Positions 26,053 through 49,684 of a DNA stretch of 64,000 nucleotides are shown here, piece by piece (position 1 is the stretch's first letter; each line of letters opens with the position of its first letter). A model generated the notes under the pieces. That model ran no database searches. It was not told where the DNA came from and worked only from the letters and a program-made list of their open reading frames with translations. The position numbers were made by a program, and so were the translations under genes. The DNA is from Synergistales bacterium (GTDB lineage: Bacteria; Synergistota; Synergistia; Synergistales; Aminobacteriaceae), in contig DAIQNX010000007.1 of NCBI GenBank assembly GCA_036788195.1, positions 12,209 to 76,208 on the forward strand, written 5' to 3'.

Positions 26053-26073
26053 GGTCTCAATCCTCCGCGACAC

Positions 26074-27701: not shown

Positions 27702-27778
27702 CGTAGAAAACATATTACCGTGGTCCACAGGCGCACTTCCGAACGATGCTCCGCCCGGGAAACGAGGTGAGTGACGGG

Positions 27779-29833: not shown

Positions 29834-29836
29834 TCC

Positions 29837-30892
29837 GTGGACACTCCACTGCGAATCCTGATGGTCGAAGACATGCCCGCCGACGCGGAGCTCGCGCGGC
29901 GCGAAATCTCGCGGGACATTCCCGAATGCGCGTTCCGGAGGGTCGAGACGAAGGAAGACCTCCTGCGGGAACTCGAGGAGTTCCGTCCGGACGTCGTCGT
30001 CTCGGACTATTCGATGCCGCGCTTCGACGGGATGACCGCGCTGCGCCTGAGCATCGGGCGCGATCCGACCATTCCGGTGATCATCCTGACGGGATCGATG
30101 AACGAGGACACCGCGGTCGCGTGCATGAAGGCAGGAGCGACCGATTACGTCATCAAGGAACACACCAAGCGTCTGGGCCCGGCAATCCTCGGCGCGATCG
30201 AGAAGCGGAGGCTCTGGGTGGATGCGGCCCGCAGGGAGCGCGAGCGCGAAGATCTGTTCGCACGCCTTCGCGCGTCGCTCGACGGAACCGTCCACATCAT
30301 CTCGACGATCGTCGAAAAGCGGGACCCCTACACGGCCGGACATCAGCGGCGAGTCGCGCTCCTTGCGGCGAGGATCGCCGGGGAAATGGGACTCCCGGAC
30401 GACCGCGTCGAAGGGGTCCGGATCGCCGGAGTCCTGCACGACATCGGAAAGGTCGCGATTCCGTCGGAAATTCTGAGCAAGCCGTCGAGCCTGACGCGCA
30501 ACGAGTTCACGCTCATCCGGCAGCACCCGTTCGAAGGGTACGAAATCCTGAAGGACACCGACTTCCCGTGGCCGCTCGCGCGAATGGTCCTCGAACATCA
30601 CGAACGCATCAACGGTTCGGGATATCCGGACGGCAGACGGGGGGAGGATCTTCTGCCCGAGTCGAAGATCCTGATGGTCGCCGACGTCGTCGAGGCCATG
30701 GCGAGTCACCGCCCGTACCGGCCGGCGCTCGGCGTCGACGCGGCGCTCGATTTCGTCGCGGGAAGCAGCGGAACGCTCTTCGACCCACAGGTCGTCGACG
30801 TGTGCATCTCGCTTTTCCGCGAACGGGGCTTCATGTGGGACGGCGCTCCGTCCGCTTTCGGCGCTGTCCGGATAAACGAAAATACCCCCTGA
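29837..30892 (+). CDS. Response regulator with HD-GYP output domain
   Basis: GTG start 3 nt after the kinase stop. REC domain (ILMVEDMP, VVVSDYSMPRFDG, ILTGS, DYVIK) plus HD-GYP (RDPYTAGHQRRVA, HDIGKVAIP, HHERINGSGYP). Confidence 0.92.
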   Translation: MDTPLRILMVEDMPADAELARREISRDIPECAFRRVETKEDLLRELEEFRPDVVVSDYSMPRFDGMTALRLSIGRDPTIPVIILTGSMNEDTAVACMKAGATDYVIKEHTKRLGPAILGAIEKRRLWVDAARREREREDLFARLRASLDGTVHIISTIVEKRDPYTAGHQRRVALLAARIAGEMGLPDDRVEGVRIAGVLHDIGKVAIPSEILSKPSSLTRNEFTLIRQHPFEGYEILKDTDFPWPLARMVLEHHERINGSGYPDGRRGEDLLPESKILMVADVVEAMASHRPYRPALGVDAALDFVAGSSGTLFDPQVVDVCISLFRERGFMWDGAPSAFGAVRINENTP

Positions 30893-35647: not shown

Positions 35648-36754
35648 TCAGGTTCCGAGCGTCAGCCGTTCCCCGTAGCTGTCGAGGAAGTTGTACGCGA
35701 TATCTCTGAATTCCCGTTCGTTCGCGAGGAACGCGTCGACGACGTCGGGATCGAAGCTCTTTCCCCGCTCTCCGGTGATGATTTCCACCGCCTTCGCGTG
35801 GGAGTAGGGCGGTTTGTAGACGCGCCGGCTGATCAGCGCGTCGTAGACGTCCGCAAGAGCCATGAGACGTCCGGAAACGGGGATGTCCTCGCCGGCCAGT
35901 CCGCAGGGATACCCCTGTCCGTTCCATTTTTCGTGATGCGTCGCGGCGATTTCGGCGGCAATCCGCAGGAAGGTACTCCCTCCCATGCTTTCCTCGGCGT
36001 TCCGTAACGCGCTCCGGCCATAGGCGGTGTGGAGCTTCATCTCCTCGAATTCCTCGCCGCTCAGCTTTCCGGGTTTCTTGAGGATCTGGTCCGGGATCCC
36101 GACCTTGCCGATATCGTGCAGCGGCGCTGTCTTGAACAGGAGGTCGATGATACCGTCCTCCGAGAGGTAGACACGGAATTTCGGGTGGCTTCTGAGGTGT
36201 TCGGCAAGCACGCGGACATAGCGCTGCGTACGCAGGATATGGCCGCCGGTCTCGAGATCCCTCGTCTCGGCGAGCGCGGAGAGGCTGTTGATCATGACCT
36301 CCTGCAGGGCGACGATTTCTCTGGTTCGTTCCCGGACGAGCTCCTCGAGGTGATCGCGGTATCTCTTGAGGTTCAGGTGGTTTTTCACGCGGGCCTTCAC
36401 GAGCTCCAGAATGAACGGCTTCGTGATGTAATCCACGGCACCCATCGCCAGGCCGCGGGCCTCGTCGCTTTCCTCCGTCTTCGCGGTCAGGAAGATCACG
36501 GGGATATCCGCCGTTTCCGGAGCGGCAGACAGGCGTTCGTAGACCTCGTATCCGTCCATATCGGGCATGATGATGTCGAGCAGGATGAGATCGGGGCGGT
36601 CTTCGGCGGCGGTTTCCAGCGCCGTCTGTCCGTCCATCGCCACGCGGACGTCATAGAGATCCCCGAGCGCCGAGACGAGCTCGTCGACACTCGATTCGAC
36701 GTCATCGACGATGAGGACTTTCGCCGGGGAAGATTCAACCATGTTTTCCGTCAC
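35648..36754 (-). CDS. Response regulator with HD-GYP output domain (RpfG-like), distal copy
   Basis: 368 aa. REC domain (VLIVDD, LILLDIIMPDMDG, FLTA, DYITKP), then [42 protein letters not shown]. The track start is GTG at 36754; ATG at 36742 is an alternative. Confidence 0.92.
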   Translation of the reverse strand: MTENMVESSPAKVLIVDDVESSVDELVSALGDLYDVRVAMDGQTALETAAEDRPDLILLDIIMPDMDGYEVYERLSAAPETADIPVIFLTAKTEESDEARGLAMGAVDYITKPFILELVKARVKNHLNLKRYRDHLEELVRERTREIVALQEVMINSLSALAETRDLETGGHILRTQRYVRVLAEHLRSHPKFRVYLSEDGIIDLLFKTAPLHDIGKVGIPDQILKKPGKLSGEEFEEMKLHTAYGRSALRNAEESMGGSTFLRIAAEIAATHHEKWNGQGYPCGLAGEDIPVSGRLMALADVYDALISRRVYKPPYSHAKAVEIITGERGKSFDPDVVDAFLANEREFRDIAYNFLDSYGERLTLGT

Positions 36755-36802
36755 TTCCTTCCTGTTGCGAAACAGCGTACTCCATCCGACCGCAATTTTC
36801 CA

Positions 36803-37885
36803 CTATTCCTCTTTATCCGAAATATCGTCATCCGGGAATTCGCGGGCTATTTCCCCGATTTCATCCCCTACCCCGAGGAAACAGTCCGTCATTCCGGGAT
36901 CGAACGACGTCCCGCGCCCTTCGGCGACGACCGAAATCGCGCGGTCATGCGGAAACGGCTCCTTGTACACCCGACGGCTGACCAGTGCGTCGTACACGTC
37001 GGCAAGAGCCATGATCCGACCCGAAACCGGGATTTCGGCTCCCCCGACGCCGCGGGGGTATCCGCTTCCGTCCCATTTCTCGTGGTGGGAGTACGCGATC
37101 TCGGCCGCCAGACGCATGAACGAGTTGGATCCGAGCCTCTTTTCCGCCATACGCAACGCCCGGAGTCCATACACTGTGTGTCGCTTCATCTCCTCGAACT
37201 CCTCGTGCGTGAGCTTTCCCGGCTTTCTGAGAATCGCATCGGGAACGCCGACCTTTCCGATATCGTGGAGTGGCGCGGATTTGTACAGGAGGTCGATCGT
37301 CGCGTCGTTCAGGGAGTCCCGGTATTCAGGAAGCAGGCTCAGACGTTCGGCGAGAAGGCGGACGTACCGCTGCGTCCGGAGTATGTGGCCGCCCGTCTCG
37401 GGATCCCGCGTTTCGGTGAGCGACGCGAGGCAATATATCGCCACCTCCTGTGTCGCCGCCAGTTCGGCGGTGCGTTCCCGCACGAGATCCTCCAGTTTGT
37501 CGCGATAGCGCTTGAGTTCGATCTGGTTGTTCACGCGCGATTTCACGAGTTCGGGGCTGAAGGGTTTCGCGATGTAGTCCACCGCGCCGAGCGCAAGCCC
37601 GCGCGCCTCGTCGCTCTCGCTTGTCATCGCCGTCAGGAAGATGACGGGGATATCGTTCGTCGCGGCATTCGCCTTGAGGCGACGGCACACCTCGTACCCG
37701 TCCATTCCGGGCATCATCACGTCGAGAAGGATCATGTCCGGCTTTTCTTCCGAGACCGCCTCGAGCGCGCCCGCTCCGTCCATCGCGACGCGGACGTCGT
37801 AAACCGCGTCGAGCGTTCCGACGAGGACATCGACGTTCGCCTCCGTATCGTCGACAACCAACACCTTCGGCGGACCTCCTGTCAT
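36803..37885 (-). CDS. Response regulator with HD-GYP output domain (RpfG-like), proximal copy
   Basis: Real part (360 aa, [13 protein letters not shown]...) of track ORF 36803..38596. The ATG at 37885 forms an ATGA overlap with the hybrid kinase stop. It has the same REC + HD-GYP motifs as the neighbour ([11 protein letters not shown]). Confidence 0.92.
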
Positions 37886-40800
37886 CCGTCTTTCGCCTCC
37901 TCTCCGGACAGCACGCGCAGGAGCGCCGTCACGCGGAGTTCCGCCTCCCTGAACTTGTACTGTCCGAGCAACGCGTCCATCTCGACCAGGGACCGGGAGT
38001 ACCCGTCCGGCCACGAAAAGGCAAGGATCTCCGCCATGATTTCCCGGCACGGCCGCGGTTTGCGCTTTCGCATTTCGGGGAGCAGCCTTTCGAGCATCGA
38101 CGCGAGCCGGGCAACGTCTCCGGGTTCGCTTCCTCCGGCGGACGAGGCTTCTTCCCCGGCAAGGCAGGCGACTACCGGATCGAGATCCCGGATCACGCGC
38201 ACCAGCTCCTGCTCGAACGGCACCAGCGCACTCTCGTCCGTGAGTCCGGAGGAAACCGCCAGCGCCGATTCGAGGAGTTCGGCCCTTCTCTGGAGATCCG
38301 GCGCCCCGATCGTTCCCGCGACGCCTTTGATCGTGTGCGCCATTCTGAGGGCGCTCTCCGTGTCCCCGCCAGAGAGGGCGGAACGGATCTGTCCGGAAAT
38401 CCCGGCGTAATCGCGATGGAACTTTCCCAAAAGGCTCGCGTACAGCTTCGTGTTCCCGGATACTCGGGAGAGACCGATCTCGCTGTTCACGACCGAGAGA
38501 CTCGACAGGTCGCACGGATTCCCTTCCTCTTCCGGAACCGCTGGATTCGGGACCGCGTATTCCGGCGGGAGCGTCCGCTCTCCGGGACGGATCCACCGCA
38601 CGAGCGTCCGCAAAACGTCCGCAGGGTCTACGGGCTTGGTCACGTAATCGTCCATTCCGCTTTCGAGGACCCGTTCCCGCACCCCCGCCATGGCGTCGGC
38701 GGTCATCGCGACAATCGGCACGGCGGTGGCCGCTCCGCCGGGTCCGACCTCCGCTTTTTCCCGGCGACGGATCTCGGAGGCGGCCGCGAATCCATCCATC
38801 TCCGGCATCTGAAGGTCCATGAGGACGACGTCGTAGGGCGTGGACGATCGTCTCGCCTCCGTCACCCGTTCGACGCCGATGCGTCCGTTTTCGGCGATGT
38901 CGACGAAGAACCCCTCCGACGAGAGAAGTTCCGTGGCGAGCTGCCGGTTGATTTCGTTGTCCTCTACCAGCAGCAGACGCGCCCCTCGGCGCTCGTCGAG
39001 CCCGTCCGGCGCCTCGATCTTCCGCTTCCCCTTCTCGATTCCCTGTTCCGCGGGATGCCCGAAAGCCTCCATGATCGCATCGAAGAGAAGGGACTGTGTC
39101 ACGGGTTTGAGAAGATATCCGTCGAGATTGATCCGTTTCGCGTCCTCCATGACGTCATCCCGACCGTAACCGGTCACGAGGATGATTTTCGGGATCCGTT
39201 CGAGTGTGGATTCCTGCTGGATCCGTTTCGCCGCCTCGATGCCGTCCATTCCTGGCATCATCCAGTCCATGAAGACGAGGTCGAAGGGAAGCTCTCCCAT
39301 AAAGGCGTCGGAACGGAGTTTTTCGACGGCCGCTTCCCCCGAGGCGGCGGAGAAAACGTCGCACGAGAACCCCCTCAGATAGTGCTCCATGACCTCGCGG
39401 AATGTGGCGTTATCGTCGACGACCATGATCTTCAGGCCGCGCACGGCCTCCGGAGCTGCGACGCGCGAGGACTGCCCTTTCCGGAGGCCGAATTCCGCGG
39501 TGAACCGGAAGACGCTTCCCTTCCCCGGCACGCTCTCGACTCCGATCGAACCTCCCATGTGCTCGACGAGGTTGCGACTGATGCTCAGACCGAGTCCCGT
39601 TCCGCCATAGCGCCGCGTCGTCGAGGCATCGGCCTGTTCGAAGGAGCGAAAAAGCCTGTTTCGCTGCTCTTCCGTCATTCCGATTCCGGTATCGCTGACC
39701 GCGAAGTTCAGCGTCGCGTCGTCCGGGCCGGCCCGGCCGCACGCGACGGAAACGACGACCTCGCCCCTTTCCGTGAACTTGACCGCATTGTTCACGAGGT
39801 TGAGCAACACCTGCCCCAGCCGCAACGGATCGCCGACGAGCGCCCCCGGAACGTCCGGAGCGACGTCGAAGATCAGTTCGAGTCCCTTCTCCTGTGCCTT
39901 CATCGTGACCTGATTCGCGAGATTTCCGAGGACTCCGCTGAGTTCGAAGTCGATTCGTTCGAGATCGAGTTTTCCGGCCTCGATCTTCGAGAAATCGAGA
40001 ATGTCGTTGATGATCCCGAGGAGGTTCTGTGCCGAGGCGTTGACTTTCGTGACGTAGTCCCGCTGCTTCGGCGTAAGGTCGGTCCTGAGGGCCAGATGGC
40101 TCATTCCGATGATCGCGTTCATCGGCGTCCGGATCTCGTGGCTCATGTTCGCGAGAAAGTCGCCCTTCGCCTTCGTCGCCTCTTCGGCCTCGCGCCGGGC
40201 CTTCTCGAGGTCCGCCAGCATTTCCTGCATCCTGCCCTTCGCACGGTCACGTTCGGCGATCTGCACGCGCAGCTCTTCGCCGGTGCGATTGAGTTCGGCG
40301 ACGACATGCCGGAGTTCGTTTTCTGCCTGCTTTCTCGCGGATACCTCGGACGAGAGCCGTCGGTTCCAGAACAGGATCAGCGAGAGCAGGAAGAGTGCCC
40401 CTGCCGTGACTTTCCAGACGAGCGCGTAGTCGATTCCCTTCGCGTATTCGACGTGCATCCAGCGGCTTTCGATCTCCCGGTGTTCCTGTTCCGTCATCGA
40501 CGCGAAGACCTTGTCGATGATCGAGACAGCCTCAGGAAACCGCAAGTCGACGCCGATCCGGTGGTCGAACCGATACCCCGCCTCGCCCGCGATCTTGAGG
40601 TTCGAGAGACCGAGATCCCGCATCACCTCGATGGCGACCGCCATGTGCTCCACGAACGCGAACGCGCTGCCGTCGGCGACTCTCAGGAGTCCTTCGGCGA
40701 CGTCGTTCGTTTCGACGATTCGGATTTCGGGGTAGTGCCTCCTGAGATAGTTCGCGGCCGTATACCCCCTGCCCGCGGCGACGGTCCGTCCCGCAAGCTC

Positions 40801-42702
40801 GCCGATGTCCCTGATGTAACTCACGTCGTTCCTCGTGACGATGACGAGCGGAAAAGAGGCGTACGGGGCGGACAGGAGGATCTCCCGTCCAGCGTCGTCG
40901 CCGCTCGCGAGCGCCGGGATCATGTCGATCTCGCGGCGGGCGTAGGCATCGAGAACATCGGACCACGTGTCGCGTTTGCGATACTCGAAACGCAGCCCGG
41001 AACGCTCCGTGATGATCTTCAGGTAATCGGCGATCAGTCCGTCGAAGGCTCCGGATTCATCGACGACGGATATCGGCCTCCAGTCGACATCGCTGAAGGT
41101 CATCGGTCCGTGGGATTCGACAAATGCCCGTTCGGCGGGCGTGAGCGGAATTCGCCCGTCCTTCCGGACCGACGCGGACTTCTTCCCGGTCCATTTTTCG
41201 TAGAGCCGCCGGACGTCGCTCTCCGGGATCAGCGCCATCCCACGACGAAGGATCGACGCGAGCAGCGGCTGATCCTTCCTGACCGCGACGTGCAGCCGCA
41301 GCGGACCGGCTCCCGCGATTCCGATATCGTCGCCGCGGACGAGTTCCTGTTCCCCGAGCCTCTCGCAGAGGAATTCGACCACGGGAACCGCGTCGACAAC
41401 GACGTCCGCCTTCCCCCGTGCGACGGCCCAGACCGCCTCGCTCGAATCGGGAGTCTCGAACAGGTCGATCGAGGCGAAGCGATGAAGGATGTCCCGGAAA
41501 ACGAACCCCCTCGTGACCGCGACGCGACGGCCGGAAAGATCCTTCACCGAGGTCACGCGGGGCGTTCCCCGGCTCGTGAACGGAGCGACCTCGACGGACG
41601 CGTACGCGGGCAGGAACGAGAGGAACTCCTCCCGTTCAGAAGTTGCCGCGACATTCAAAAGGACATCGAGATCCCCGGAGCGAATCATCGAGAAGAAATC
41701 GTTCCACTTTCCGTGAGTGACGAAACGGATGTCAAGCCCCGTCTTTTCCGCGAGCAGCATCATGTATTCGATCGAGAGTCCCTTCGGAATGCCGCCCTCA
41801 CGGTAGTTCAGCGGCGCCCAGTCCTCCTCGTTCTGGACGCGGATCTCCCGCGTGTTCGCGAGAAAGGTCTGTTCCTCGTCGGTAAGCGCGGCCGCGAACT
41901 CGGCCGGGATCTGTCTCGCGTGACGGACGATCCACTTCTTCTCCAGTCCGTCGCGATCCCTGACGGAGATCTTTCCGAGCCCATCGTTGATGAGAGGAAG
42001 CAGGTCGGCTCTGTCCCGGGATACGGCGGCGCAGTAGACCTGCGAGAAGAGCGGCGCGGATTCGTCGAATGAGAAGATGTTCGAGAGGCGGTTTTGTCCC
42101 AGAAAGTAGTTCAGGCCGATCTTCGTCGACACGAAGACCTTGACGTCCCCACGCATCGCTGCGCGGAAGAGCGCGTCGAAGTCGTCGTAGAACGCGATTC
42201 GCGAAGCCGGGAGACGGGCCCAGAGAAAATCCTGCGTATAGCCGCTGGTGGCGATGCCGACGATCAGTCCGGACGTGTCGTCGAGCGTCCGGACGCGGCG
42301 GATCGCCGGGTGGGAGAACAGGAAGTAGTCGAGGCTCAGGATTGGGGCGGAAAACGCGAGGTACGATTCCCGCTCCGGCGTGCGGAAGACTCCGGCATGG
42401 ATATCGGCGCTTCCCGTCCTGAGGTATTCGAGTGATTCGTTCAGTCCGGGGGCGCGCACGAGGTCGACGGACACTCCGGCCTTTTCCGACCAGAGCCGCC
42501 AGAAGTCTGCGAAGAGCCCCATCGCGTCCCCGGATTCGCTCTCGAACTTCAGCGGCGCGACGCCTGGGTTGTAGACAAAACTCAGCCGCGCTCCTCCCGA
42601 CGTGGCGCCGGAATGCGTCGGAAACATCATGAAGGCCGCGAGCAGAAGAACGGCGAACAATGGAACGAACCGGCCGGAACGGGAACGGTCGCATTTCCGC
42701 AT
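37882..42702 (-). CDS. Hybrid sensor histidine kinase: 3 periplasmic solute-binding (SBP_bac_3/Venus-flytrap) domains, TM, HisKA, HATPase, 2 REC domains, Hpt domain
   Basis: 1606 aa, with the ATG at 42702 after GAGGAGAGG. After the signal peptide there are three PBP-like repeats (approx aa 38-258, 286-505, 533-750) and a TM helix (approx 759-781). These are followed by a coiled coil, H-box [13 protein letters not shown] and G boxes DTGIGM, GTGLGL. REC1 is [14 protein letters not shown]2 is [11 protein letters not shown] and the Hpt motif is [12 protein letters not shown]. About 100 aa follow the Hpt domain. Confidence 0.93.
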
Positions 42703-42866: not shown

Positions 42867-43811
42867 TCAGGCCGTGAGCCGGCCTCCTTCGACGACGACG
42901 CGGCCGTCGAGCCGCAGCGTCGGCTTGCGCATGACGCCGTCGATGTGAATTCCCGCGGCGACGGTTCCTCCGAACGTATCGTTGCTGCCGAGCGCGATGT
43001 GTACCGTCCCGTAGATCTTTTCATCCTCGAGAATCACGCCCGTGAAGCGTGCGCGGTCGTTCGTCCCGATGCCGAGCTCCGCGAGGTTGCGGGCCTTCGG
43101 ATTGTCCCCGAGCTGCGCGAGGATCGTGGAGCCTCCCCTTCCCTCGATGCCGGCGAGAAGCCCGTCCCGGAACGTCAGCAGCAGCGGTTCGTCGAGGACG
43201 CCGAGCCCGACGAACGATCCGTCGATGACCACGGAGCCGTTCGCACTCCCTTCGACCGGCGCGATGTACGCCTCTCCCGAAGGGAGGTTGCCCGATTCGC
43301 CCCTGTTGCGATAGACGCCCGTGCTCGGATGCCCTTCGCGCCCGGCGAGGGACATCGAGAGAGAGTGTCCGCCCGTTATGATCTCGGCCGTTCCGGCGTG
43401 GGAAAGCAACTCAGTGTAGCGTTTCGTCACCGCTTCGACGATCGTGTAGTCGGCCGTGATCGGACCGTTGAAGTACATATCCCCGGTGATTCGCGGCATC
43501 GTCGCCACGCGGGCTCCCGCTTCGCACGCGCGCTTTCGCGCCTGCGTATGCGTCAGCGAGGCCCCGGTCGGGGCCACAACGACGTCGGCGGCCTTCATCG
43601 CGGCCGAGACGATGTCGTCCGGCTCAGCGCCGTTCCGTTCGGGAACGGGAATCCGGATCGCAGCCGTCTTCGCACCCAGGGCGCATCCCGCGAGAAACAG
43701 ACTCTCGCCGATCTGCAATGTCGTCTCGTCGTAGACGACGACCAGCCGTTCGCCGGCGACAAGCCCCATATTGTCCTTCAGAAGCCGCTTCGACACATCG
43801 ACGAAATCCAT
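42867..43811 (-). CDS. M29-like (aminopeptidase T/S fold) metallohydrolase, short form
   Basis: Real part (314 aa, MDFVDVSKRLL...) of track ORF 42867..44672, with GAGGAGGGG upstream of the ATG at 43811. GEAYIAPVEGSANGSVVIDGS and ELGIGTN...EDEKIYGTVHIALG resemble the M29 metal-binding C-terminal half. Confidence 0.7.
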   Translation of the reverse strand: MDFVDVSKRLLKDNMGLVAGERLVVVYDETTLQIGESLFLAGCALGAKTAAIRIPVPERNGAEPDDIVSAAMKAADVVVAPTGASLTHTQARKRACEAGARVATMPRITGDMYFNGPITADYTIVEAVTKRYTELLSHAGTAEIITGGHSLSMSLAGREGHPSTGVYRNRGESGNLPSGEAYIAPVEGSANGSVVIDGSFVGLGVLDEPLLLTFRDGLLAGIEGRGGSTILAQLGDNPKARNLAELGIGTNDRARFTGVILEDEKIYGTVHIALGSNDTFGGTVAAGIHIDGVMRKPTLRLDGRVVVEGGRLTA

Positions 43812-43828
43812 ATTCCGAACGCCCCTCC

Positions 43829-44503
43829 TCATCCGATCAGTTCGCGAACGACGCGGGCGACGATGCCCCGCGCCAGGATCACGGGCCTGTCCGTCACTTC
43901 CCGGACCGCTTCCTGCATCGCAAGCGTATACCCCATGCAGTCCATGACCGTGAGATCGGCCCCCCATTCCTTCATCTCCGCCGCGGCCGCCCGAACGGCC
44001 CTTTCGGCATCCGCGTAGGGCGACGCCGGAACCACGCGAAGATCCGAGCAGACGCTCTTCCAGCGACGTCCGGATTGCGCGATCTGGTCGCGCGACGGCG
44101 TCAGGAACCCGACGCGCAATCCTTTCGCGACCGCCTCGACCGTATTGTACAGGATGCGTTGCGGACGCAGGAGCAGACCGTCGGTCGGGAAATCCGGGAA
44201 TTCTCCCGTGCAGAGCAGCAGAACGGTCGAAAGACCGTTGTCGAAATGCTCCGCGATCCTGGCTTCCACGCGGGGCGCGATATATTTTTCGGCGACCTGG
44301 ATCGACGAACCGTCCGCCAGGCGCGTGACGAGAACGTAGTCTCCGGTCTCGGGGGCGAGAGACGCGATCTCGTCCCGGGAGAGTCCGTCGAGCGCGCCGG
44401 CCTCGACGATGTCGATTCCGTCGCCGAGAATCGCGCGCAGATCGGGCGTCACGTCCGTTCGCGGCGACTGTCCGATCGTCACCGTTCCGAGAATCCGTTT
44501 CAT
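43829..44503 (-). CDS. aroM: AroM-family protein (function unknown)
   Basis: 224 aa, collinear with my recollection of E. coli AroM (TIGQSPRTDV.P, GLSRDEIASLAPE, GADLTVMDCMGY, PVILARGIVARVVRELI). The ATG forms an ATGA overlap with the upstream stop. Confidence 0.8.
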   Translation of the reverse strand: MKRILGTVTIGQSPRTDVTPDLRAILGDGIDIVEAGALDGLSRDEIASLAPETGDYVLVTRLADGSSIQVAEKYIAPRVEARIAEHFDNGLSTVLLLCTGEFPDFPTDGLLLRPQRILYNTVEAVAKGLRVGFLTPSRDQIAQSGRRWKSVCSDLRVVPASPYADAERAVRAAAAEMKEWGADLTVMDCMGYTLAMQEAVREVTDRPVILARGIVARVVRELIG

Positions 44504-45339
44504 CGGTCATTCTCCTTTCGAAGTTCGTCCCGATAACAGCACGCGAGATGATCCGCGCCGTTCGGTCCGCAGCGGAGGCACTCGTCGATGGAGCCGGCGA
44601 CGCCGCTCGTCTCCGCTCCCCTGACACTCTCGAGAACCATCCGGAACGTCTCGAACCATCGGTCGTCGCCATCGACGACGAACGTCGCTCCGCCTTCGGC
44701 TCCCGAGACGCCGCCGCGTCCGATTACCCACGCGTCGCGCGCCCCGAGCGCGCGCAACGCCTCGGGTTCGCTCACGATCCGCCCGAAGAGGGGCACGAGT
44801 CCCACCGCCATGCCCATGGACCACACCGGCGCCTTTCGGCCGCAGGCTTTCATCGCCTCCGGCACGGAAGTCGGGGAGATCTTCTCGACTCCCGCGGCGA
44901 TGATGCATCGCACCCCCTGCGACGGCAGGAGCGGCAGTATCCGTCCCGGCTCGCCGCCCATGAACCGCCCGGCCATCATCGCCGCGTTCCCGCAGGAGTC
45001 GACGATGTTGGCGCCGCAGACGACGACGTCGTCCGGGCCCATCTCGGCGGCGATCGCCTCAAGACGGCCATCTGCCGCTTCGGGACGCCCTCCGCGAAGC
45101 AACAGGGAGTGCGCCCCTTCGACGGTCCGGGCCGCCGCGACGGTCCCCCGGAGGGATATCCGTCCGGAAATCCGGAGCGGCGTCCCGGCCAGTTCTTCCG
45201 CGAGCGCCGAGACCGTCGTCCCGCCCTTGAGCAGGATCATCCCGTCCGCCAACGCGCGGCGCACTTCGGGAAGCGCGGCGATCCCCTTCGCGATCAGTTT
45301 TTTGCCTTCCGCGACGGTAAGGGAAAACTGCGCTTTCAT
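44500..45339 (-). CDS. Hypothetical protein, 279 aa, no family recognised; C-terminal Cys cluster
   Basis: Clean ORF with codon usage like its neighbours. The start lies 1 nt after the DUF1177 stop, and the stop overlaps the aroM start. Gly/Ala-rich Rossmann-like stretches (LLKGGTTV, VVVCGANIVD, IIAAGVEK) end with ECLRCGPNGADHLACC. Confidence 0.75.
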   Translation of the reverse strand: MKAQFSLTVAEGKKLIAKGIAALPEVRRALADGMILLKGGTTVSALAEELAGTPLRISGRISLRGTVAAARTVEGAHSLLLRGGRPEAADGRLEAIAAEMGPDDVVVCGANIVDSCGNAAMMAGRFMGGEPGRILPLLPSQGVRCIIAAGVEKISPTSVPEAMKACGRKAPVWSMGMAVGLVPLFGRIVSEPEALRALGARDAWVIGRGGVSGAEGGATFVVDGDDRWFETFRMVLESVRGAETSGVAGSIDECLRCGPNGADHLACCYRDELRKENDR

Positions 45340-45340
45340 C

Positions 45341-46276
45341 TCATACGTCGCCCATTCCCTGAAGGTGCGTCATCGGGCCGTAGAGTTCGACCATGCGGTC
45401 GTATTCGGTCGGATCGTAGAAAGACAGATTCCCTTCGCCGAAGGCCTTCGCGACCTCGATGACGAACCGGACGGCCGATTCGATATCGACCGGCTGCGAC
45501 GCACCCGTCGCGCATCCGGGAACCGCCGACTCCGCCGTAAGCGCGACGCCGACAACCGGAGCCGACGTCGCCGTGCACGGCTGCAGGATGCTGTTCAGAT
45601 GGTAGAGTCCGTTGCCGTACGGGGTGATGTCCTGCATCGACAGCGGGAAGACGACGGGGGCGCGCCCGGTCACGTACGACATGACGGAGAGCAGGTCCTC
45701 GCTGACGCGCATGATCCAGCCCTCCCTGACGGTCGGCGAGATGGCGAACCCGCGATGGTTGATGACCCGGTTGCCGCGCGTCGTATCCACGGAGAGGACC
45801 GCGTCGAGATTTCCGGACATCTCCTCCGCGTTCGCGATCGCCATGTTGATCGGAGAATCCATGAACGGGACGGGGTCGTGCGGGCGCGTCGGAGCGTTCG
45901 GACAGATGTGGGTCGATACGAAGACGTCACCTTTCAGGACGTCTCCGACGGCCGACATGCGGGCCAGCTTCATCGCCGTCGCCACGGCCGTGACGGCTCC
46001 GTCTGCGTCCGACACCAGGCCGGTCCGCTCGGGTCTCGCCCCGATGCCGCCCAGTCGTCCGACGATTCCGAGCGTCGGGGCTGTTCCCCCCGATATTCTG
46101 CCCGACGAACCGCGTACCCAGACCTTCACGAAGTCGGTGTTTCCTTTCGGTCCCGTGACGGTCCGCACGACGACGTCCGCCTCCCCCGCCTCCAGAATCG
46201 CCGCCCTGACGGATTCTCCCGTGACGACCGGAGAATCCAGAAGTTCCATGGCCTTCATGGTCCAGTAGAGAGACAT
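45341..46276 (-). CDS. DUF1177-like protein (function unknown)
   Basis: 311 aa with AAGGAG 7 nt upstream of the ATG. The assignment rests on my recollection of DUF1177 sequences and of their co-occurrence with DUF917/AroM/OPT genes. It needs an HMM check. Confidence 0.55.
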   Translation of the reverse strand: MSLYWTMKAMELLDSPVVTGESVRAAILEAGEADVVVRTVTGPKGNTDFVKVWVRGSSGRISGGTAPTLGIVGRLGGIGARPERTGLVSDADGAVTAVATAMKLARMSAVGDVLKGDVFVSTHICPNAPTRPHDPVPFMDSPINMAIANAEEMSGNLDAVLSVDTTRGNRVINHRGFAISPTVREGWIMRVSEDLLSVMSYVTGRAPVVFPLSMQDITPYGNGLYHLNSILQPCTATSAPVVGVALTAESAVPGCATGASQPVDIESAVRFVIEVAKAFGEGNLSFYDPTEYDRMVELYGPMTHLQGMGDV

Positions 46277-46279
46277 GAA

Positions 46280-47386
46280 TTAGCTCCTTTCCCGGGATCC
46301 CCCGCGCGCATCGAAGGACAGGTACGCGAGAACGGGCTCCCCGACTATGCCCTCGACGGGCTCGAACAATTCCCTGCACCGCATCCCCGCTCCGAGAAGC
46401 AGGTTTCCGGACGGCGCGGCCAGAACGACGACGCGCATGTCGCGCCGAAGCTCCGCGGTCGTCACTGGAACTCCCGTCCCCGCGTCGAGCGTCATGATGA
46501 GGTCGGGGAACGTGTACCGGCGTTTTCCTCCGACGTCGAGCGTCATGTATTCGTTCCAGAAGGTCGCGGACACTCCCCCTTCGACCTCGATCCGGCCGTG
46601 GTCGAACCCGCCTTCGGTCGCGAGGTCGTACCGCACGACCGCGCCTTCCGCAACGACCGTTCCGCCGAGGAGCGCAGCCGCGGCGGCCGCGACCGCTTCC
46701 CCGCCGAAACCGGCGTCGCGCATCGCGAATCCGACCTCGATCGCCCTCCGGACCCCGCCAGGCGCCGCGTGCCGTTTCGCGTACGACGCCGGTACCGGAT
46801 TTCGGGCCACGGACACAAGTCCGCCCGCACGTACGGAACTCTGTCGTACGAGCGCCGATACCGCCTCCATCGGTCCCCTGAAGATCGCCTCGAGGTACGT
46901 CCCCTTCTCAGGATCCCCACCCGCCGCGGCCTGCACCGAGCGATACGCGGCGTCGCGATGGAGCCCCATCGAGCCCATGAGCCCCGTCGGATGGGCGCGA
47001 CCGTTGCACGGGGCGTCAACTACCGGTCGCCCGGTCATCGCGGCGGGAACCCATCCGTTGCAGATCGCGCTGCCACCGCATTCGTTCGTGATGAGCCCGC
47101 CGACCGAGAGATCCTCGAAACGTTCGAGCATCGTCACGACGCGTCCCGCCGCCTCCGGCGAAGCGCAGGCGTCTCTCGCCGCCGGCGCCCCTACGGCCGA
47201 ACACGTCAGCAGCACGACTTCCGGATCGACATCGTCGATATCGACGAGGTTCACTCCCCCGAGGCGCACCGCCTCGACCGCGAGAAGGCGCCCCTTCTCC
47301 ATGGATCCGCCGCCGCCGCCGCCGAGCAGGCACCCTCCGAGAATCGCGGCATCGATTTCTTCCCGTGTCAGTTTCATACCCTTCAC
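46280..47386 (-). CDS. DUF917-family protein (hydantoinase-like two-domain fold; function unknown here)
   Basis: 368 aa. The N-terminal AAILGGCLLGGGGGGS glycine run and NECGGSA, followed by a second domain of similar size, match my recollection of DUF917. The track start is GTG at 47386; ATG at 47377 is an alternative. Confidence 0.65.
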   Translation of the reverse strand: MKGMKLTREEIDAAILGGCLLGGGGGGSMEKGRLLAVEAVRLGGVNLVDIDDVDPEVVLLTCSAVGAPAARDACASPEAAGRVVTMLERFEDLSVGGLITNECGGSAICNGWVPAAMTGRPVVDAPCNGRAHPTGLMGSMGLHRDAAYRSVQAAAGGDPEKGTYLEAIFRGPMEAVSALVRQSSVRAGGLVSVARNPVPASYAKRHAAPGGVRRAIEVGFAMRDAGFGGEAVAAAAAALLGGTVVAEGAVVRYDLATEGGFDHGRIEVEGGVSATFWNEYMTLDVGGKRRYTFPDLIMTLDAGTGVPVTTAELRRDMRVVVLAAPSGNLLLGAGMRCRELFEPVEGIVGEPVLAYLSFDARGGSRERS

Positions 47387-47405
47387 CCGCGTTTCGTTCT
47401 CTACG

Positions 47406-48059
47406 TCAGCAGAGTGCGGCGCGCATGGCCGCTCCCGCCGCGATCAGCGGATCGATGACGACAAGCCCCGTCTGCTCCCGAAGCACGGCCGCGATTCCGA
47501 TCGTCGCGAACCCCGTACACGCGAGCGCGAGCACCCGGGCGCCGCGATCCCTCATCAGGCGCGCCGAAGCGATCGTCCGTTCCCGTCCTCCGTGAGTCAT
47601 GAGGTCGAGCGTCGACGACACCCCATCCGGACGTCCGGACGCAACCAGCGCGTCGCCGAGAATCGCGCGCATCTCTTCCGGGACGTCCTCCATGATGCCG
47701 AGAACGCCCACCGCCGCCCCGAACGAACGGGCAAGATGCGCCGTCGCGATTCCCGCGCCGACGACCGGAACCGTGAGATCCCGCTGAAGCGTCCGTACGG
47801 CGGGATCTCCCGCACAGCTCACGAGAATCCCCCCGACCCCATCTCGTTCCATTTCGCGGGCAAGCGCGATCACTTTCGGAATCGCGAGGCGCTCCGTCCC
47901 GGAATCGTGGATCCCCTCGGGTTGGTCCGGAATGCAGCGGGACTCCACCCGAAGCCCCGGAAAGGTCCGTTCGAGGATGTCGCCGTGACGCCGGAGCAGC
48001 GACTCGTCGTCCGTGGTCAGGACCCGGATGAGGCCGACTTTCGCTTCGGTCACCACCAT
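47406..48059 (-). CDS. Asp/Glu/hydantoin racemase-family protein
   Basis: 217 aa. The two-Cys layout VSCAGDPAV ... LALACTGF is typical of cofactor-independent Asp/Glu/hydantoin racemases. The start overlaps the OPT gene end by 10 nt. Confidence 0.7.
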   Translation of the reverse strand: MVVTEAKVGLIRVLTTDDESLLRRHGDILERTFPGLRVESRCIPDQPEGIHDSGTERLAIPKVIALAREMERDGVGGILVSCAGDPAVRTLQRDLTVPVVGAGIATAHLARSFGAAVGVLGIMEDVPEEMRAILGDALVASGRPDGVSSTLDLMTHGGRERTIASARLMRDRGARVLALACTGFATIGIAAVLREQTGLVVIDPLIAAGAAMRAALC

Positions 48060-49684
48060 CCGAAACTCCTCCCGAGCGCGTTCACGAAGCCGTAGATTCC
48101 GTCTCCGGCAATGAACCCCGCGCCGTACAGCTCGAGGAGCTCCCCGTGATTCTTCTCGAACGCGAGTCTGATGGCGACGGCGACAAGAAGCCCTATCCCG
48201 TAGATCGGGTTGTTAATCAGGAGTCCCGTCGCGAAGAGCACGCCGAGCGCCTTTTTCGCGCCTCCCGCGAACTGGAGCGCCGCTCCGGCAACCGACCAGA
48301 CCAGAAGCTGGCGCAGGATCTCCGGGTGCGATCCCGCCTTGATCGTCGCCGCAAACACCTTGCTGACGGGCGGGATGAGATTCTGCCGGAAGTGCATGTC
48401 CATGAGAAGTCCGACGACGACCATCGCGATGACGCCGCCGATCAGCTCGGAGATCACCTGCTGGCGTCTGCCGTCGAGCTCGTATGCCGGGTTCGTTCCC
48501 CTGCCGCGGATGATCCATCCGGTCTTCAGGTCGTATCCCATATCCGCGAAGCACGGCCCGGTGCTGGCGACATACCCCGTCAGCAGCGCGAGCGCCGCGG
48601 GGGGGAACCCCATGAAGAGTCCGAGACTCAGGAAGATGATGCTGATCGCGAACCCGGGAAACCATCCCGAGTGCATCGCGCAGAGCCCGACGAGAATCGG
48701 GCTGACCAGCGCGGAAATCGTGCTCCAGGTCACCCAGAGCGACAGCGTCGAAGCCGACATCTCCGACCAGATGCCCGAGATGAGCGACAGGGCCACGGCG
48801 CCCGCGAGGAAGAGGACGAAGCCCATTCCGATGGCCTTCTTCGTGGCGTCTTTGCTCACACTGTACGTATCCTGCATTGTTTCCGCGGCGCCGTTTCCGG
48901 ATTTGCGCGTGATGATGACGATGGCCTGGATCAGCGAGACGACTCCGGCCCCGATCATGACGCCATGGGGGATATAGGTCTTCCCGAGATCGACTGGGAG
49001 CCCCGAAATTCCCAGACTTCCAAGAAACGCCGCGATCTGCGGGAAGTACCCGCGGACGAGGAGTCCAAGGGCCAGCGCGACCATCGCGAACGTATTCGCG
49101 ATGAAGGCGATGCCGACTCCCGCCATCGGCAGTCCGGCGGCGAGAAACGGCTTGATCTTGAGAGCCGCTCCCGCCGCTCCGAGCAGGATGCCTCCGAAGA
49201 GCAGCCGCCCCTTTCGTCCGCCTTCATCCCCCGCTATGAGCGCCTGCGCCGTCGCGACGCCGGGAGGCCATGAACCGCTCGCCGGGAACAGCTCGGAATC
49301 GTAGACGCGATACACGAAGTACATCCCGATCAGCGTCGCGATCCCCGATCCGACGAGCATCGGAATGAGCTGCTTCATGTCGCCGAAGGCGAACAGGATT
49401 CCGACCGCGAGGAGTCCGCAGTTCGCCGCCCCGAAACCGGCGGCGGATGTCATCGTCTGCACGAGATTCTGCCTGTCGAGACTCCGGAACTTTTCCATCG
49501 ACGCGAGCGGAATCCGCGCTATCGCCATCGCGAGCAGCGCCCCGATCACGGATGTGTTCGGGGTGATGCCGATCCTCGCGATGATCTGCATGCAGATCAC
49601 GGCCGACAGAACCGAAACGAAGACGCTGACCAGCAGCGTCTCCCTCTCGAGCGCCTTCACGTGTGGTTCGTGTGGATCCTTCAT
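48050..49684 (-). CDS. OPT-family oligopeptide transporter
   Basis: 544-aa polytopic membrane protein. N-terminus ...TLLVSVFVSVLSAVICMQIIARIGITPNTSVIGALLAMAI and the overall 14-16 TM pattern fit bacterial OPT-superfamily proteins. First gene of the operon. Confidence 0.8.
   Translation of the reverse strand: MKDPHEPHVKALERETLLVSVFVSVLSAVICMQIIARIGITPNTSVIGALLAMAIARIPLASMEKFRSLDRQNLVQTMTSAAGFGAANCGLLAVGILFAFGDMKQLIPMLVGSGIATLIGMYFVYRVYDSELFPASGSWPPGVATAQALIAGDEGGRKGRLLFGGILLGAAGAALKIKPFLAAGLPMAGVGIAFIANTFAMVALALGLLVRGYFPQIAAFLGSLGISGLPVDLGKTYIPHGVMIGAGVVSLIQAIVIITRKSGNGAAETMQDTYSVSKDATKKAIGMGFVLFLAGAVALSLISGIWSEMSASTLSLWVTWSTISALVSPILVGLCAMHSGWFPGFAISIIFLSLGLFMGFPPAALALLTGYVASTGPCFADMGYDLKTGWIIRGRGTNPAYELDGRRQQVISELIGGVIAMVVVGLLMDMHFRQNLIPPVSKVFAATIKAGSHPEILRQLLVWSVAGAALQFAGGAKKALGVLFATGLLINNPIYGIGLLVAVAIRLAFEKNHGELLELYGAGFIAGDGIYGFVNALGRSFGWW

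What the first reader, a model, noticed from the sequence alone, without database searches (positions are those of the whole stretch)
35648..42702. 1606-aa hybrid kinase with three tandem Venus-flytrap domains feeding two tandem REC-HD-GYP paralogues
Seen: one ORF encodes three SBP_bac_3-like periplasmic domains, a TM helix, a kinase core, two receiver domains and an Hpt domain (HTIKG), plus about 100 extra C-terminal residues. Its TGA overlaps the ATG of the first of two consecutive REC-HD-GYP genes. By eye these two are roughly two-thirds identical to each other. BvgS-type kinases, as I recall, carry two flytrap domains, so three is unusual. The architecture implies a His-Asp-His-Asp relay branching onto two phosphodiesterases, which would couple periplasmic amino-acid-like ligands to cyclic dinucleotide turnover.
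Basis: partly seen in the sequence, partly recalled or inferred. Interest (0 to 1): 0.6.

Follow-up and report, generated by a model that had tools for sequence, protein, structure and literature searches.

The report
Three-flytrap sensor kinase with twin phosphodiesterases
[quoted passage not shown] Every part is of a known type, so it is a well-preserved but fairly ordinary example.

Summary
One minus-strand ORF (37882-42702, 1606 aa) carries three SBP_bac_3 (Venus-flytrap) domains. Each passes Pfam's cut-off on its own. They are followed by one TM helix, HisKA/HATPase, two receivers, an Hpt domain (H1456, HTIKG) and an unassigned tail.

The kinase's TGA overlaps the ATG of a 360-aa REC-HD-GYP gene (ATGA). 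A second REC-HD-GYP gene follows after 60 nt and is 64% identical to the first. Both keep the phospho-acceptor Asp, all eight metal ligands, and the KPG, GYP and RxxK motifs.

- Three flytraps is not new. The BvgS literature already records one to five, and relatives found here have four or five.
- Flytrap kinases that feed c-di-GMP phosphodiesterases are known (RocS1/RocR, ArrS/ArrR). Hybrid kinases that feed REC-HD-GYP regulators are known too (RpfC/RpfG).
- The twin regulators come from a lineage-specific duplication kept in five related genomes, and both are under purifying selection.
- Neither the branching of the relay nor amino-acid-like ligands is shown. None of the flytraps has the canonical amino-acid-binding triad.

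The most interesting by-product is the C-terminal tail. It is a confidently predicted four-helix module with no family assignment, and it caps more than 2000 clusters of two-component proteins.

The parts
37882..42702 (-). Hybrid sensor histidine kinase, 1606 aa (whole gene)
   Evidence: ORF and translation. Pfam domains. Orthologues at 69-76% identity with the same architecture.
42604..42669 (-). N-terminal signal peptide or TM1 (residues 12-33)
   Evidence: One of only two hydrophobic peaks in a Kyte-Doolittle scan.
41917..42594 (-). VFT1, an extra membrane-distal SBP_bac_3 domain (residues 37-262)
   Evidence: Scores 45.0 bits on its own against a cut-off of 26.4. It lies N-terminal to the part that aligns with BvgS.
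41167..41853 (-). VFT2 (residues 284-512), counterpart of BvgS VFT1
   Evidence: 68.3 bits. Aligns with BvgS chain 4q0c.
40447..41112 (-). VFT3 (residues 531-752), membrane-proximal, counterpart of BvgS VFT2
   Evidence: 48.8 bits. Aligns with BvgS 4q0c/3mpk and with the VFT of chain 7ejg_C, 'EAL domain-containing protein', E 1.8e-30.
40366..40425 (-). Transmembrane helix (residues 760-779)
   Evidence: Highest hydrophobicity peak.
40171..40365 (-). About 65-residue cytoplasmic linker with no PAS domain (residues 780-844)
   Evidence: No PAS hit. That the stretch is helical is read from its sequence only, not predicted. PAS-less BvgS homologues with a single helical linker are described in PMC5829827.
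39496..40170 (-). Kinase core: HisKA (845-910, H855) and HATPase_c (957-1069)
   Evidence: Pfam 77 and 101 bits. H-box [12 protein letters not shown] and the N, G1 and G2 boxes are read in the sequence.
39073..39429 (-). Receiver 1 (residues 1092-1210, D1146)
   Evidence: Pfam 85.6 bits. The DD, D, T and K positions are present.
38605..38982 (-). Receiver 2 (residues 1241-1366, D1296)
   Evidence: Pfam 83.6 bits. The ED, D, T and K positions are present.
38143..38481 (-). Hpt domain (residues ~1408-1520, H1456 in HTIKG)
   Evidence: Pfam 43.5-45 bits. The AF2 model matches solved Hpt domains 3myf, BarA and ArcB.
37900..38127 (-). C-terminal four-helix module with no family assignment (residues 1526-1601)
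   Evidence: AF2 mean pLDDT 88, helices 137-206 of the 213-residue piece. No Pfam, NCBIfam or PDB match. Not Hpt-like by hhalign. A profile finds 2321 clusters. In 138 of the 146 best hits re-scored, the match lies within 15 residues of the C terminus.
36803..37885 (-). RR1: REC-HD-GYP response regulator, 360 aa (D55; HD 207-208; [11 protein letters not shown] 267-277)
   Evidence: ATGA overlap with the kinase stop. Pfam. PDB relatives PA4781 and PmGH. Residue table.
35648..36742 (-). RR2: REC-HD-GYP response regulator, 364 aa from the ATG (D56; HD 209-210; HHEKWNGQGYP 269-279). An upstream GTG at 36754 is also possible.

Best explanation
This is a three-gene two-component operon. The kinase belongs to the PAS-less branch of the BvgS family of Venus-flytrap sensor kinases. 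It has one extra membrane-distal flytrap in front of the BvgS-like pair.

Inferred mechanism:
1. A periplasmic cue, chemical or physical, changes the conformation of the flytrap stack.
2. The single TM helix and a ~65-residue linker pass this change to the kinase core.
3. Phosphate moves from H855 to a receiver Asp (D1146 or D1296), then to H1456 of the Hpt domain.
4. From there it moves to D55 of RR1 and D56 of RR2.
5. RR1 and RR2 are RpfG-family REC-HD-GYP enzymes with a complete trinuclear-type active site. [quoted passage not shown]

Shown here: the genes, domains and catalytic residues, the conservation of the operon, and purifying selection on both regulators.

Inferred only: phosphotransfer to each regulator, the sign of the control, the substrate, and the ligand.
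For: - Architecture and residues.
- VFT2-VFT3 align with BvgS VFT1-VFT2 (4q0c, E 2.8e-33).
- Translational coupling of the kinase and RR1 (ATGA) and a 60-nt gap to RR2.
- The order kinase-RR1-RR2 is kept in G001, G002, G003 and GCA_032942435.1.
- A more distant lineage (G021, G030) has the same 3xVFT-HK-REC-REC-Hpt-tail kinase with one overlapping REC-HD-GYP gene.
- In both regulators and their orthologues, E185, H189, H221, D222, H250, H276, H277 and D305 (PmGH numbering) are kept, together with KPG, GYP and RxxK. Their roles are given in the HD-GYP survey (10.1101/2021.11.05.467447).
- Regulators of the same REC-HD-GYP architecture in Desulfovibrio vulgaris, such as DVUA0086 (1092-bp gene, so about the same size), hydrolyse c-di-GMP in vitro (PMC4114195). 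Their identity to RR1 or RR2 was not measured here.
- dN/dS is 0.09-0.13 for each paralogue between species.
- The genome has about 30 GGDEF, 5 EAL and at least 14 HD-GYP-like matches, so it has a c-di-GMP network to act on.
- In 17 of 80 loci picked only by kinase similarity, an HD-GYP gene lies near the kinase, directly downstream in most.
Against: - No experiment exists on this system or on a close relative.
- Gene adjacency does not prove phosphotransfer, least of all to RR2, which is not translationally coupled.
- The helix alpha-1 residues of the two receivers differ consistently ([12 protein letters not shown] against DDVESSVDELVS). They may therefore differ in affinity for the Hpt domain, or in partner.
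- The sign of control is open. Phosphorylation inhibits the EAL regulator ArrR.
- Some REC-HD-GYP domains (DVU1181) showed no c-di-GMP hydrolysis in vitro.
- No ligand can be inferred.
- No sigma-70-like promoter or intrinsic terminator was found around the operon. The transcription unit is therefore inferred from spacing only.
Confidence: 0.7

Rival explanations
1. Only one of the two regulators is the working output. The other competes for phosphate from the Hpt domain, or modulates its twin, for example by forming heterodimers. That would shape the response rather than double it. The model is the NO-sensing HnoK network, where one kinase feeds a phosphodiesterase regulator and an HD-GYP regulator that controls it (from my knowledge of Plate and Marletta 2012; not checked here).
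For: The two clades differ consistently in receiver helix alpha-1 and in the N-terminal loop of the HD-GYP domain. Both stem branches are long, 0.29 and 0.38. dN/dS between the paralogues (0.21) is higher than between orthologues. Related lineages work with one regulator.
Against: Both keep every catalytic, metal-binding and substrate-binding residue, unlike the degenerate HnoD. Both are under equally strong purifying selection.
Confidence: 0.15
2. The paralogues have divided the substrates. One could act on c-di-GMP and the other on pGpG or on 3'3'-cGAMP, as the Vibrio cholerae HD-GYP enzymes (V-cGAPs) do.
For: HD-GYP domains can hydrolyse cGAMP; chain 5z7c is among the PDB relatives, and the survey discusses this. 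Product spectra differ among closely related HD-GYPs.
Against: The RxxK pair that reads guanine 1 and the KPG motif are unchanged in both. The third-metal Glu, linked to full hydrolysis to GMP, is also present in both. No cGAMP synthase was looked for.
Confidence: 0.08
The adjacency is a remnant of gene transfer, and they take phosphate from other kinases of this kinase-rich genome.
For: The genome has many hybrid kinases and at least three further REC-HD-GYP genes. Two of them lie next to their own kinases: window 27746-30892, and contig C29.
Against: There is an ATGA overlap. The gene order is kept in five genomes of the lineage, and the kinase-regulator pair also in G021 and G030. Kinase-HD-GYP adjacency is widespread.
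Confidence: 0.05

Closest known systems
BvgS (Bordetella pertussis) and EvgS (E. coli): the BvgS family of Venus-flytrap sensor kinases
   Same: Tandem periplasmic SBP_bac_3 domains, a single TM helix, HisKA-HATPase, a receiver and Hpt on one chain. VFT2-VFT3 align with BvgS VFT1-VFT2.
   Different: It has three flytraps instead of two, no PAS domain, two receivers and an extra C-terminal module. The partners are HD-GYP enzymes, not a DNA-binding regulator. It scores far below the NCBIfam EvgS cut-off (233 against 1995 bits).
RpfC/RpfG of Xanthomonas
   Same: A hybrid kinase with fused receiver and Hpt passes phosphate to a REC-HD-GYP regulator that degrades c-di-GMP.
   Different: RpfC senses the fatty-acid signal DSF through a membrane-embedded input. 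Here the input is a periplasmic flytrap stack, there are two regulators, and no rpfF-like synthase was noted among the neighbouring genes.
RocS1/RocR (Pseudomonas aeruginosa) and ArrS/ArrR (Aeromonas veronii)
   Same: BvgS-like two-flytrap hybrid kinases whose partner regulator is a c-di-GMP phosphodiesterase (PMC11841396). RocS1 also serves a second regulator, so a branched output has a precedent.
   Different: Their phosphodiesterase domain is EAL, not HD-GYP. They have two flytraps and a PAS domain.
REC-HD-GYP regulators of Desulfovibrio vulgaris (DVUA0086, DVU0722) and Thermotoga TM0186
   Same: The same REC-HD-GYP (RpfG family) layout, and for DVUA0086 about the same size. They are metal-dependent c-di-GMP hydrolases in vitro.
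   Different: Their kinases and signals are unknown. No tandem pair behind a flytrap kinase is described.
RmcA (PA0575) and CdgH: flytrap domains fused directly to c-di-GMP enzymes
   Same: A periplasmic flytrap input controls c-di-GMP turnover (papers listed). VFT3 resembles the flytrap of an 'EAL domain-containing protein' (7ejg_C).
   Different: In those proteins sensing and catalysis sit on one chain without a phosphorelay.

Membership tests
BvgS family of VFT sensor kinases | One or more periplasmic SBP_bac_3 (VFT) domains N-terminal to a TM segment | tested here: met
   Three domains, each above Pfam's cut-off on its own. TM helix at residues 760-779. Alignment with BvgS 4q0c at E 2.8e-33.
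BvgS family of VFT sensor kinases | HisKA + HATPase_c kinase core on the same chain (the selection rule of Lesne 2018: PF00497 and PF00512 together) | tested here: met
BvgS family of VFT sensor kinases | Receiver and Hpt domains that form an internal phosphorelay | tested here: met
   Two receivers with acceptor Asp (D1146, D1296) and Hpt with H1456. The Hpt fold is confirmed by the model.
BvgS family of VFT sensor kinases | Cytoplasmic PAS domain between TM and kinase (present in BvgS and EvgS, absent in about 30% of the family) | tested here: not met
   No PAS hit. The protein falls in the described PAS-less subgroup with a single helical linker, so this does not exclude membership.
BvgS family of VFT sensor kinases | Intertwined dimeric flytrap stack that controls kinase/phosphatase switching | not testable with these tools
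   This needs a structure of the dimer or biochemistry.
RpfG family (REC-HD-GYP response regulators) | N-terminal receiver with acidic pocket, acceptor Asp, Thr and Lys | tested here: met
   RR1: D12/D13, D55, T85, K107. RR2: D13/D14, D56, T86, K108.
RpfG family (REC-HD-GYP response regulators) | HD-GYP domain with HD, HHExh(D/N)GxGYP, metal ligands, and the KPG and RxxK motifs | tested here: met
   All are kept in both. RR2 has N in the D/N position.
RpfG family (REC-HD-GYP response regulators) | c-di-GMP phosphodiesterase activity controlled by phosphorylation | not testable with these tools
   This needs an enzyme assay. It has been shown for relatives.
Rpf (DSF) quorum-sensing system | RpfC-type membrane input that senses DSF, with an rpfF synthase nearby | tested here: not met
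   The input is a periplasmic flytrap stack. The called neighbours in the syntenic locus L096 are a peptide-transport and hydrolase cluster, a LysM/M23 peptidase, an acyl-ACP thioesterase and an Fe-ADH. The system works like Rpf downstream of the kinase but is not an Rpf system.
Amino-acid-binding SBP_bac_3 proteins (GlnBP/HisJ type) | Thr70, Arg75 and Asp157 (GlnBP numbering), which hold the alpha-carboxylate and alpha-amino groups | tested here: inconclusive
   By alignment, VFT1 has F/R/T, VFT2 has A/R/A (with Asp one position earlier) and VFT3 has A/A/H. The alignment is at about 20% identity.

The most novel reading that the evidence does not exclude
The ~76-residue four-helix module that ends the kinase (residues 1526-1601) may be an undescribed, widespread domain of two-component proteins. 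It is almost always the last element of the chain. It usually follows an Hpt domain and sometimes follows the catalytic domain directly. It could be a docking or gating element that decides which response regulator gets the phosphate, here RR1 or RR2. It has no Pfam, NCBIfam or PDB relative.
Probability: 0.3. Interest if true: 0.5.

Novelty: new member of a known kind. Interest (0 to 1): 0.27.

Why it matters
If the reading is right, this organism uses a periplasmic cue to set its c-di-GMP level through two parallel phosphodiesterases. That is a tidy natural case for two questions:
- how a duplicated output of one phosphorelay diverges;
- how a third flytrap is integrated into the BvgS-type mechanical switch.

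The lineage is said to be Synergistaceae, where c-di-GMP signalling has hardly been studied and HD-GYP enzymes outnumber EAL enzymes.

None of this overturns current knowledge. Each module and each wiring principle has a described precedent. The unassigned C-terminal module is the one element that could add something new to the parts list of two-component signalling.

Tried and rejected
- **Is the tail a degenerate second Hpt?** The hhalign comparison of the tail profile with the Hpt profile gave probability 0.6%. Rejected.
- **Does the tail have relatives in PDB or NCBIfam?** Only chance-level hits. Foldseek on the Hpt+tail model returned only Hpt domains and designed helical bundles.
- **Is the kinase an equivalog of BarA, TorS, ArcB, EvgS, LuxQ or RcsC?** All hits are far below the NCBIfam cut-offs. 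Rejected.
- **Promoters and terminators.** No promoter-like sites were found, and terminator-like sites are no more frequent than in shuffles. Uninformative.
- **Rooting the regulator tree with the window's third REC-HD-GYP (29837-30892).** Its branch was far too long (6.8) and left a basal polytomy. It was dropped.
- **Naming the organism.** The listing of cluster members gave no names. A scan with RpoB returned only distant named genomes: Bacillota at 57-60% and Cyanobacteria at about 54%.
- **A functional link to the upstream OPT/racemase/DUF917/DUF1177/AroM/M29 operon.** The adjacency is kept in the genus and in L096 but is absent in G030. It is therefore not treated as part of the system.
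Full report
**1. What is there**

Three ORFs lie head to tail on the minus strand.
- The first is 37882-42702 and encodes 1606 residues.
- Its stop codon shares two bases with the start codon of the second gene (GGATGACAGG). That gene is 36803-37885 and encodes 360 residues.
- The third gene follows after about 60 nt. The mechanical ORF starts at a GTG (36754). The orthologue in locus L096 and the database cluster P0161 both begin at the ATG four codons later (36742, 364 residues). I take that as the start.

Purine-rich ribosome-binding sites precede the starts of the kinase and RR1, and the preferred ATG of RR2.

**2. The kinase**

Pfam finds SBP_bac_3 three times, then HisKA, HATPase_c, Response_reg twice and Hpt. 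I cut the periplasmic part into three pieces and scanned each alone. The scores were 45.0, 68.3 and 48.8 bits against a gathering score of 26.4. Each match covers nearly the whole profile. The count of three does not depend on summed scores.

Only two hydrophobic segments exist, at residues 12-30 and 760-779. The three domains are therefore periplasmic, and one helix crosses the membrane.

About 65 residues link the membrane to HisKA, and no PAS domain is present.

The catalytic signatures are intact:
- H855 in [12 protein letters not shown];
- the N, G1 and G2 boxes;
- D1146 and D1296 in two complete receivers;
- H1456 in AHTIKGVAG.

**3. Relation to BvgS**

Against solved structures, the second and third flytraps align as a pair with VFT1-VFT2 of BvgS (4q0c, E 2.8e-33). 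They also match the isolated BvgS VFT2, Geobacter HK29s (3h7m) and EvgS. The protein is thus a BvgS-family kinase with one extra membrane-distal flytrap.

This is not new to the field. Dupre et al. 2015 write that the more than 2000 BvgS homologues contain one to five VFT domains, and they discuss three, four or five in tandem (PMC4352136). Lesne et al. 2018 describe the PAS-less subgroup with a single helical linker, about 30% of the two-VFT members (PMC5829827).

The nearest relatives outside the lineage come from Desulfobacterales metagenome bins. They carry four or five SBP_bac_3 domains (P0006-P0010).

No NCBIfam equivalog (BarA, TorS, ArcB, EvgS, LuxQ, RcsC) comes near its cut-off.

**4. 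The two regulators**

Both have a receiver plus HD/HD_5 and are 64% identical. Their closest solved relatives are the HD-GYP domains of PA4781 (4r8z) and PmGH (4mcw).

I aligned them with PmGH and read off the residues whose roles are given in the HD-GYP survey of Galperin and colleagues. Both proteins and all their orthologues keep:
- E185, H189, H221, D222, H250, H276, H277 and D305;
- the KPG motif;
- GYP;
- the RxxK pair that reads guanine.

The one difference is Asn for Asp in HHEKWNGQGYP of RR2. This lies inside the published consensus HHExh(D/N)GxGYP.

The third-metal Glu places both in the trinuclear class, which is usually able to go on to GMP.

The receivers have the acidic pair, the acceptor Asp (D55 and D56), Thr and Lys.

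Regulators of the same REC-HD-GYP architecture in Desulfovibrio vulgaris hydrolyse c-di-GMP in vitro with Mn2+ (PMC4114195). One of them, DVUA0086, is about the same size.

**5. Conservation and origin**

The order kinase-RR1-RR2 recurs in three other species of the genus (G001-G003). Some contigs end inside RR2. It also recurs in GCA_032942435.1, together with the flanking genes.

Two genomes of another family of the same order (G021, G030) have the same kinase layout: three flytraps, two receivers, Hpt and the same tail. It is 35-36% identical over residues 50-1598. It is followed by a single, overlapping REC-HD-GYP gene.

In a tree of 130 REC-HD-GYP proteins, the RR1 clade and the RR2 clade are each other's nearest relatives (SH-aLRT 97.9) once a very distant outgroup is removed. 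Adding the single-copy regulators to that group is not rejected (p-AU 0.47). Both stems are long, so long-branch attraction cannot be excluded.

The simplest reading is a tandem duplication in the ancestor of this lineage. Between species, each paralogue shows dN/dS of about 0.09-0.13 (dS is near 1, so the figures are rough). Both are therefore maintained by selection.

The two clades differ consistently in receiver helix alpha-1 ([12 protein letters not shown] against DDVESSVDELVS) and around the first metal-binding loop. Those are the places where partner choice and regulation would be expected to change.

**6. How it most likely works**

The proposed path is a His-Asp-His-Asp relay from the flytrap stack to the two phosphodiesterases, which then reset c-di-GMP.

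The scheme has precedents for each link:
- RpfC/RpfG for hybrid kinase to REC-HD-GYP;
- RocS1/RocR and ArrS/ArrR for BvgS-like kinase to c-di-GMP phosphodiesterase;
- RmcA and CdgH for flytrap input to c-di-GMP enzymes.

The pairing is also common. Among 80 loci chosen only for similarity to the kinase, 17 carry an HD-GYP gene near the kinase, directly downstream in most. They come from Desulfobacterota, Nitrospirota, Planctomycetota, Betaproteobacteria and others. Earlier notes of this scan describe similar cassettes in Bacillota; those are leads only.

The genome has the network to act on: about 30 GGDEF, 5 EAL and at least 14 HD-GYP-like matches.

Four things remain inferred:
- transfer to each regulator;
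- which internal receiver relays the phosphate;
- the sign of control, since phosphorylation inhibits ArrR;
- the substrate.

**7. The ligand**

The claim of amino-acid-like ligands rests on the family name only. I aligned the three flytraps with E. coli GlnBP. None of the three flytraps has the Thr70/Arg75/Asp157 triad. The BvgS flytraps lack it too, and they respond to nicotinate, sulfate and temperature.

The alignment is at low identity, so I call this inconclusive rather than negative.

The neighbouring upstream operon (OPT transporter, racemase, DUF917, DUF1177, AroM, M29 peptidase) is kept next to the kinase in this lineage but not in G030. I do not count it as evidence.

**8. The C-terminal tail**

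The Pfam Hpt model ends early. The Hpt bundle itself runs to about residue 1520.

What follows, residues 1526-1601, is conserved in relatives from several lineages. AlphaFold2 on a 15-sequence alignment models it with confidence as four helices after the Hpt bundle (mean pLDDT 88).

It has no match in:
- Pfam;
- NCBIfam;
- PDB sequences;
- a fold search, apart from the Hpt portion.

It is not a second Hpt by profile comparison.

A profile of the module finds 2321 representative clusters at E <= 0.001 and 153 at E <= 1e-10. I re-scored 146 of the best 150 hits. In 138 of them the match ends within 15 residues of the C terminus. An Hpt-like His motif lies upstream in 98, and 72 have a HisKA H-box.

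Of ten sampled proteins, eight have two-component domains. These include small Hpt proteins and plain kinases where the module follows HATPase_c directly.

This looks like an unannotated terminal module of two-component proteins. Its function is unknown.

**9. Verdict**

This is a new, well-conserved member of known kinds: a BvgS-family kinase wired to RpfG-family regulators, with a lineage-specific duplication of the output. Interest is modest. The tail module is the item most worth a further look.

Noticed in passing
window 37900-38127 (-), kinase residues 1526-1601: This is a conserved four-helix C-terminal module with no Pfam, NCBIfam or PDB relative. A profile finds 2321 clusters, almost always at the very end of Hpt proteins, hybrid kinases and some plain kinases.
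   Followed up: partly
window 27746-29833 (+) and 29837-30892 (+); also 24190-26073 (-): The same window holds a second kinase followed after 3 nt by another REC-HD-GYP regulator (33% identical to RR2), and a multi-PAS HD-GYP protein. The genome has at least 14 HD-GYP-like matches against 5 EAL.
   Followed up: partly
window 35648-42702 compared with loci L001, L004, P0006-P0010, P0051-P0066: The nearest relatives of both the kinase and the regulators outside the lineage are from Desulfobacterales bins; the regulators are 66-73% identical. The genome's RpoB found no Thermodesulfobacteriota among its best named hits, which were Bacillota at 57-60%.
   Followed up: partly
window 42867-49684 (-): A seven-gene cluster (OPT transporter, Asp/Glu racemase, DUF917, DUF1177, an unassigned protein, AroM, M29 peptidase) lies directly upstream on the same strand, 164 nt from the kinase start. 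It is syntenic in GCA_032942435.1 but absent beside the kinase of G030.
   Followed up: partly
proteins P0011, P0012, P0014-P0018, P0020, P0021, P0023, P0024: Many relatives of the flytrap region are multi-SBP_bac_3 plus multi-PAS membrane proteins with no kinase domain on record. Some carry SpoIIE/PP2C (PF07228) instead.
   Followed up: no
G001 contigs C282 and C350: G001 holds two copies of the RR1-RR2 pair on separate short contigs, 85-86% identical to the window's RR2. The genome is listed with 7% contamination, so this may be strain mixture rather than a further duplication.
   Followed up: no
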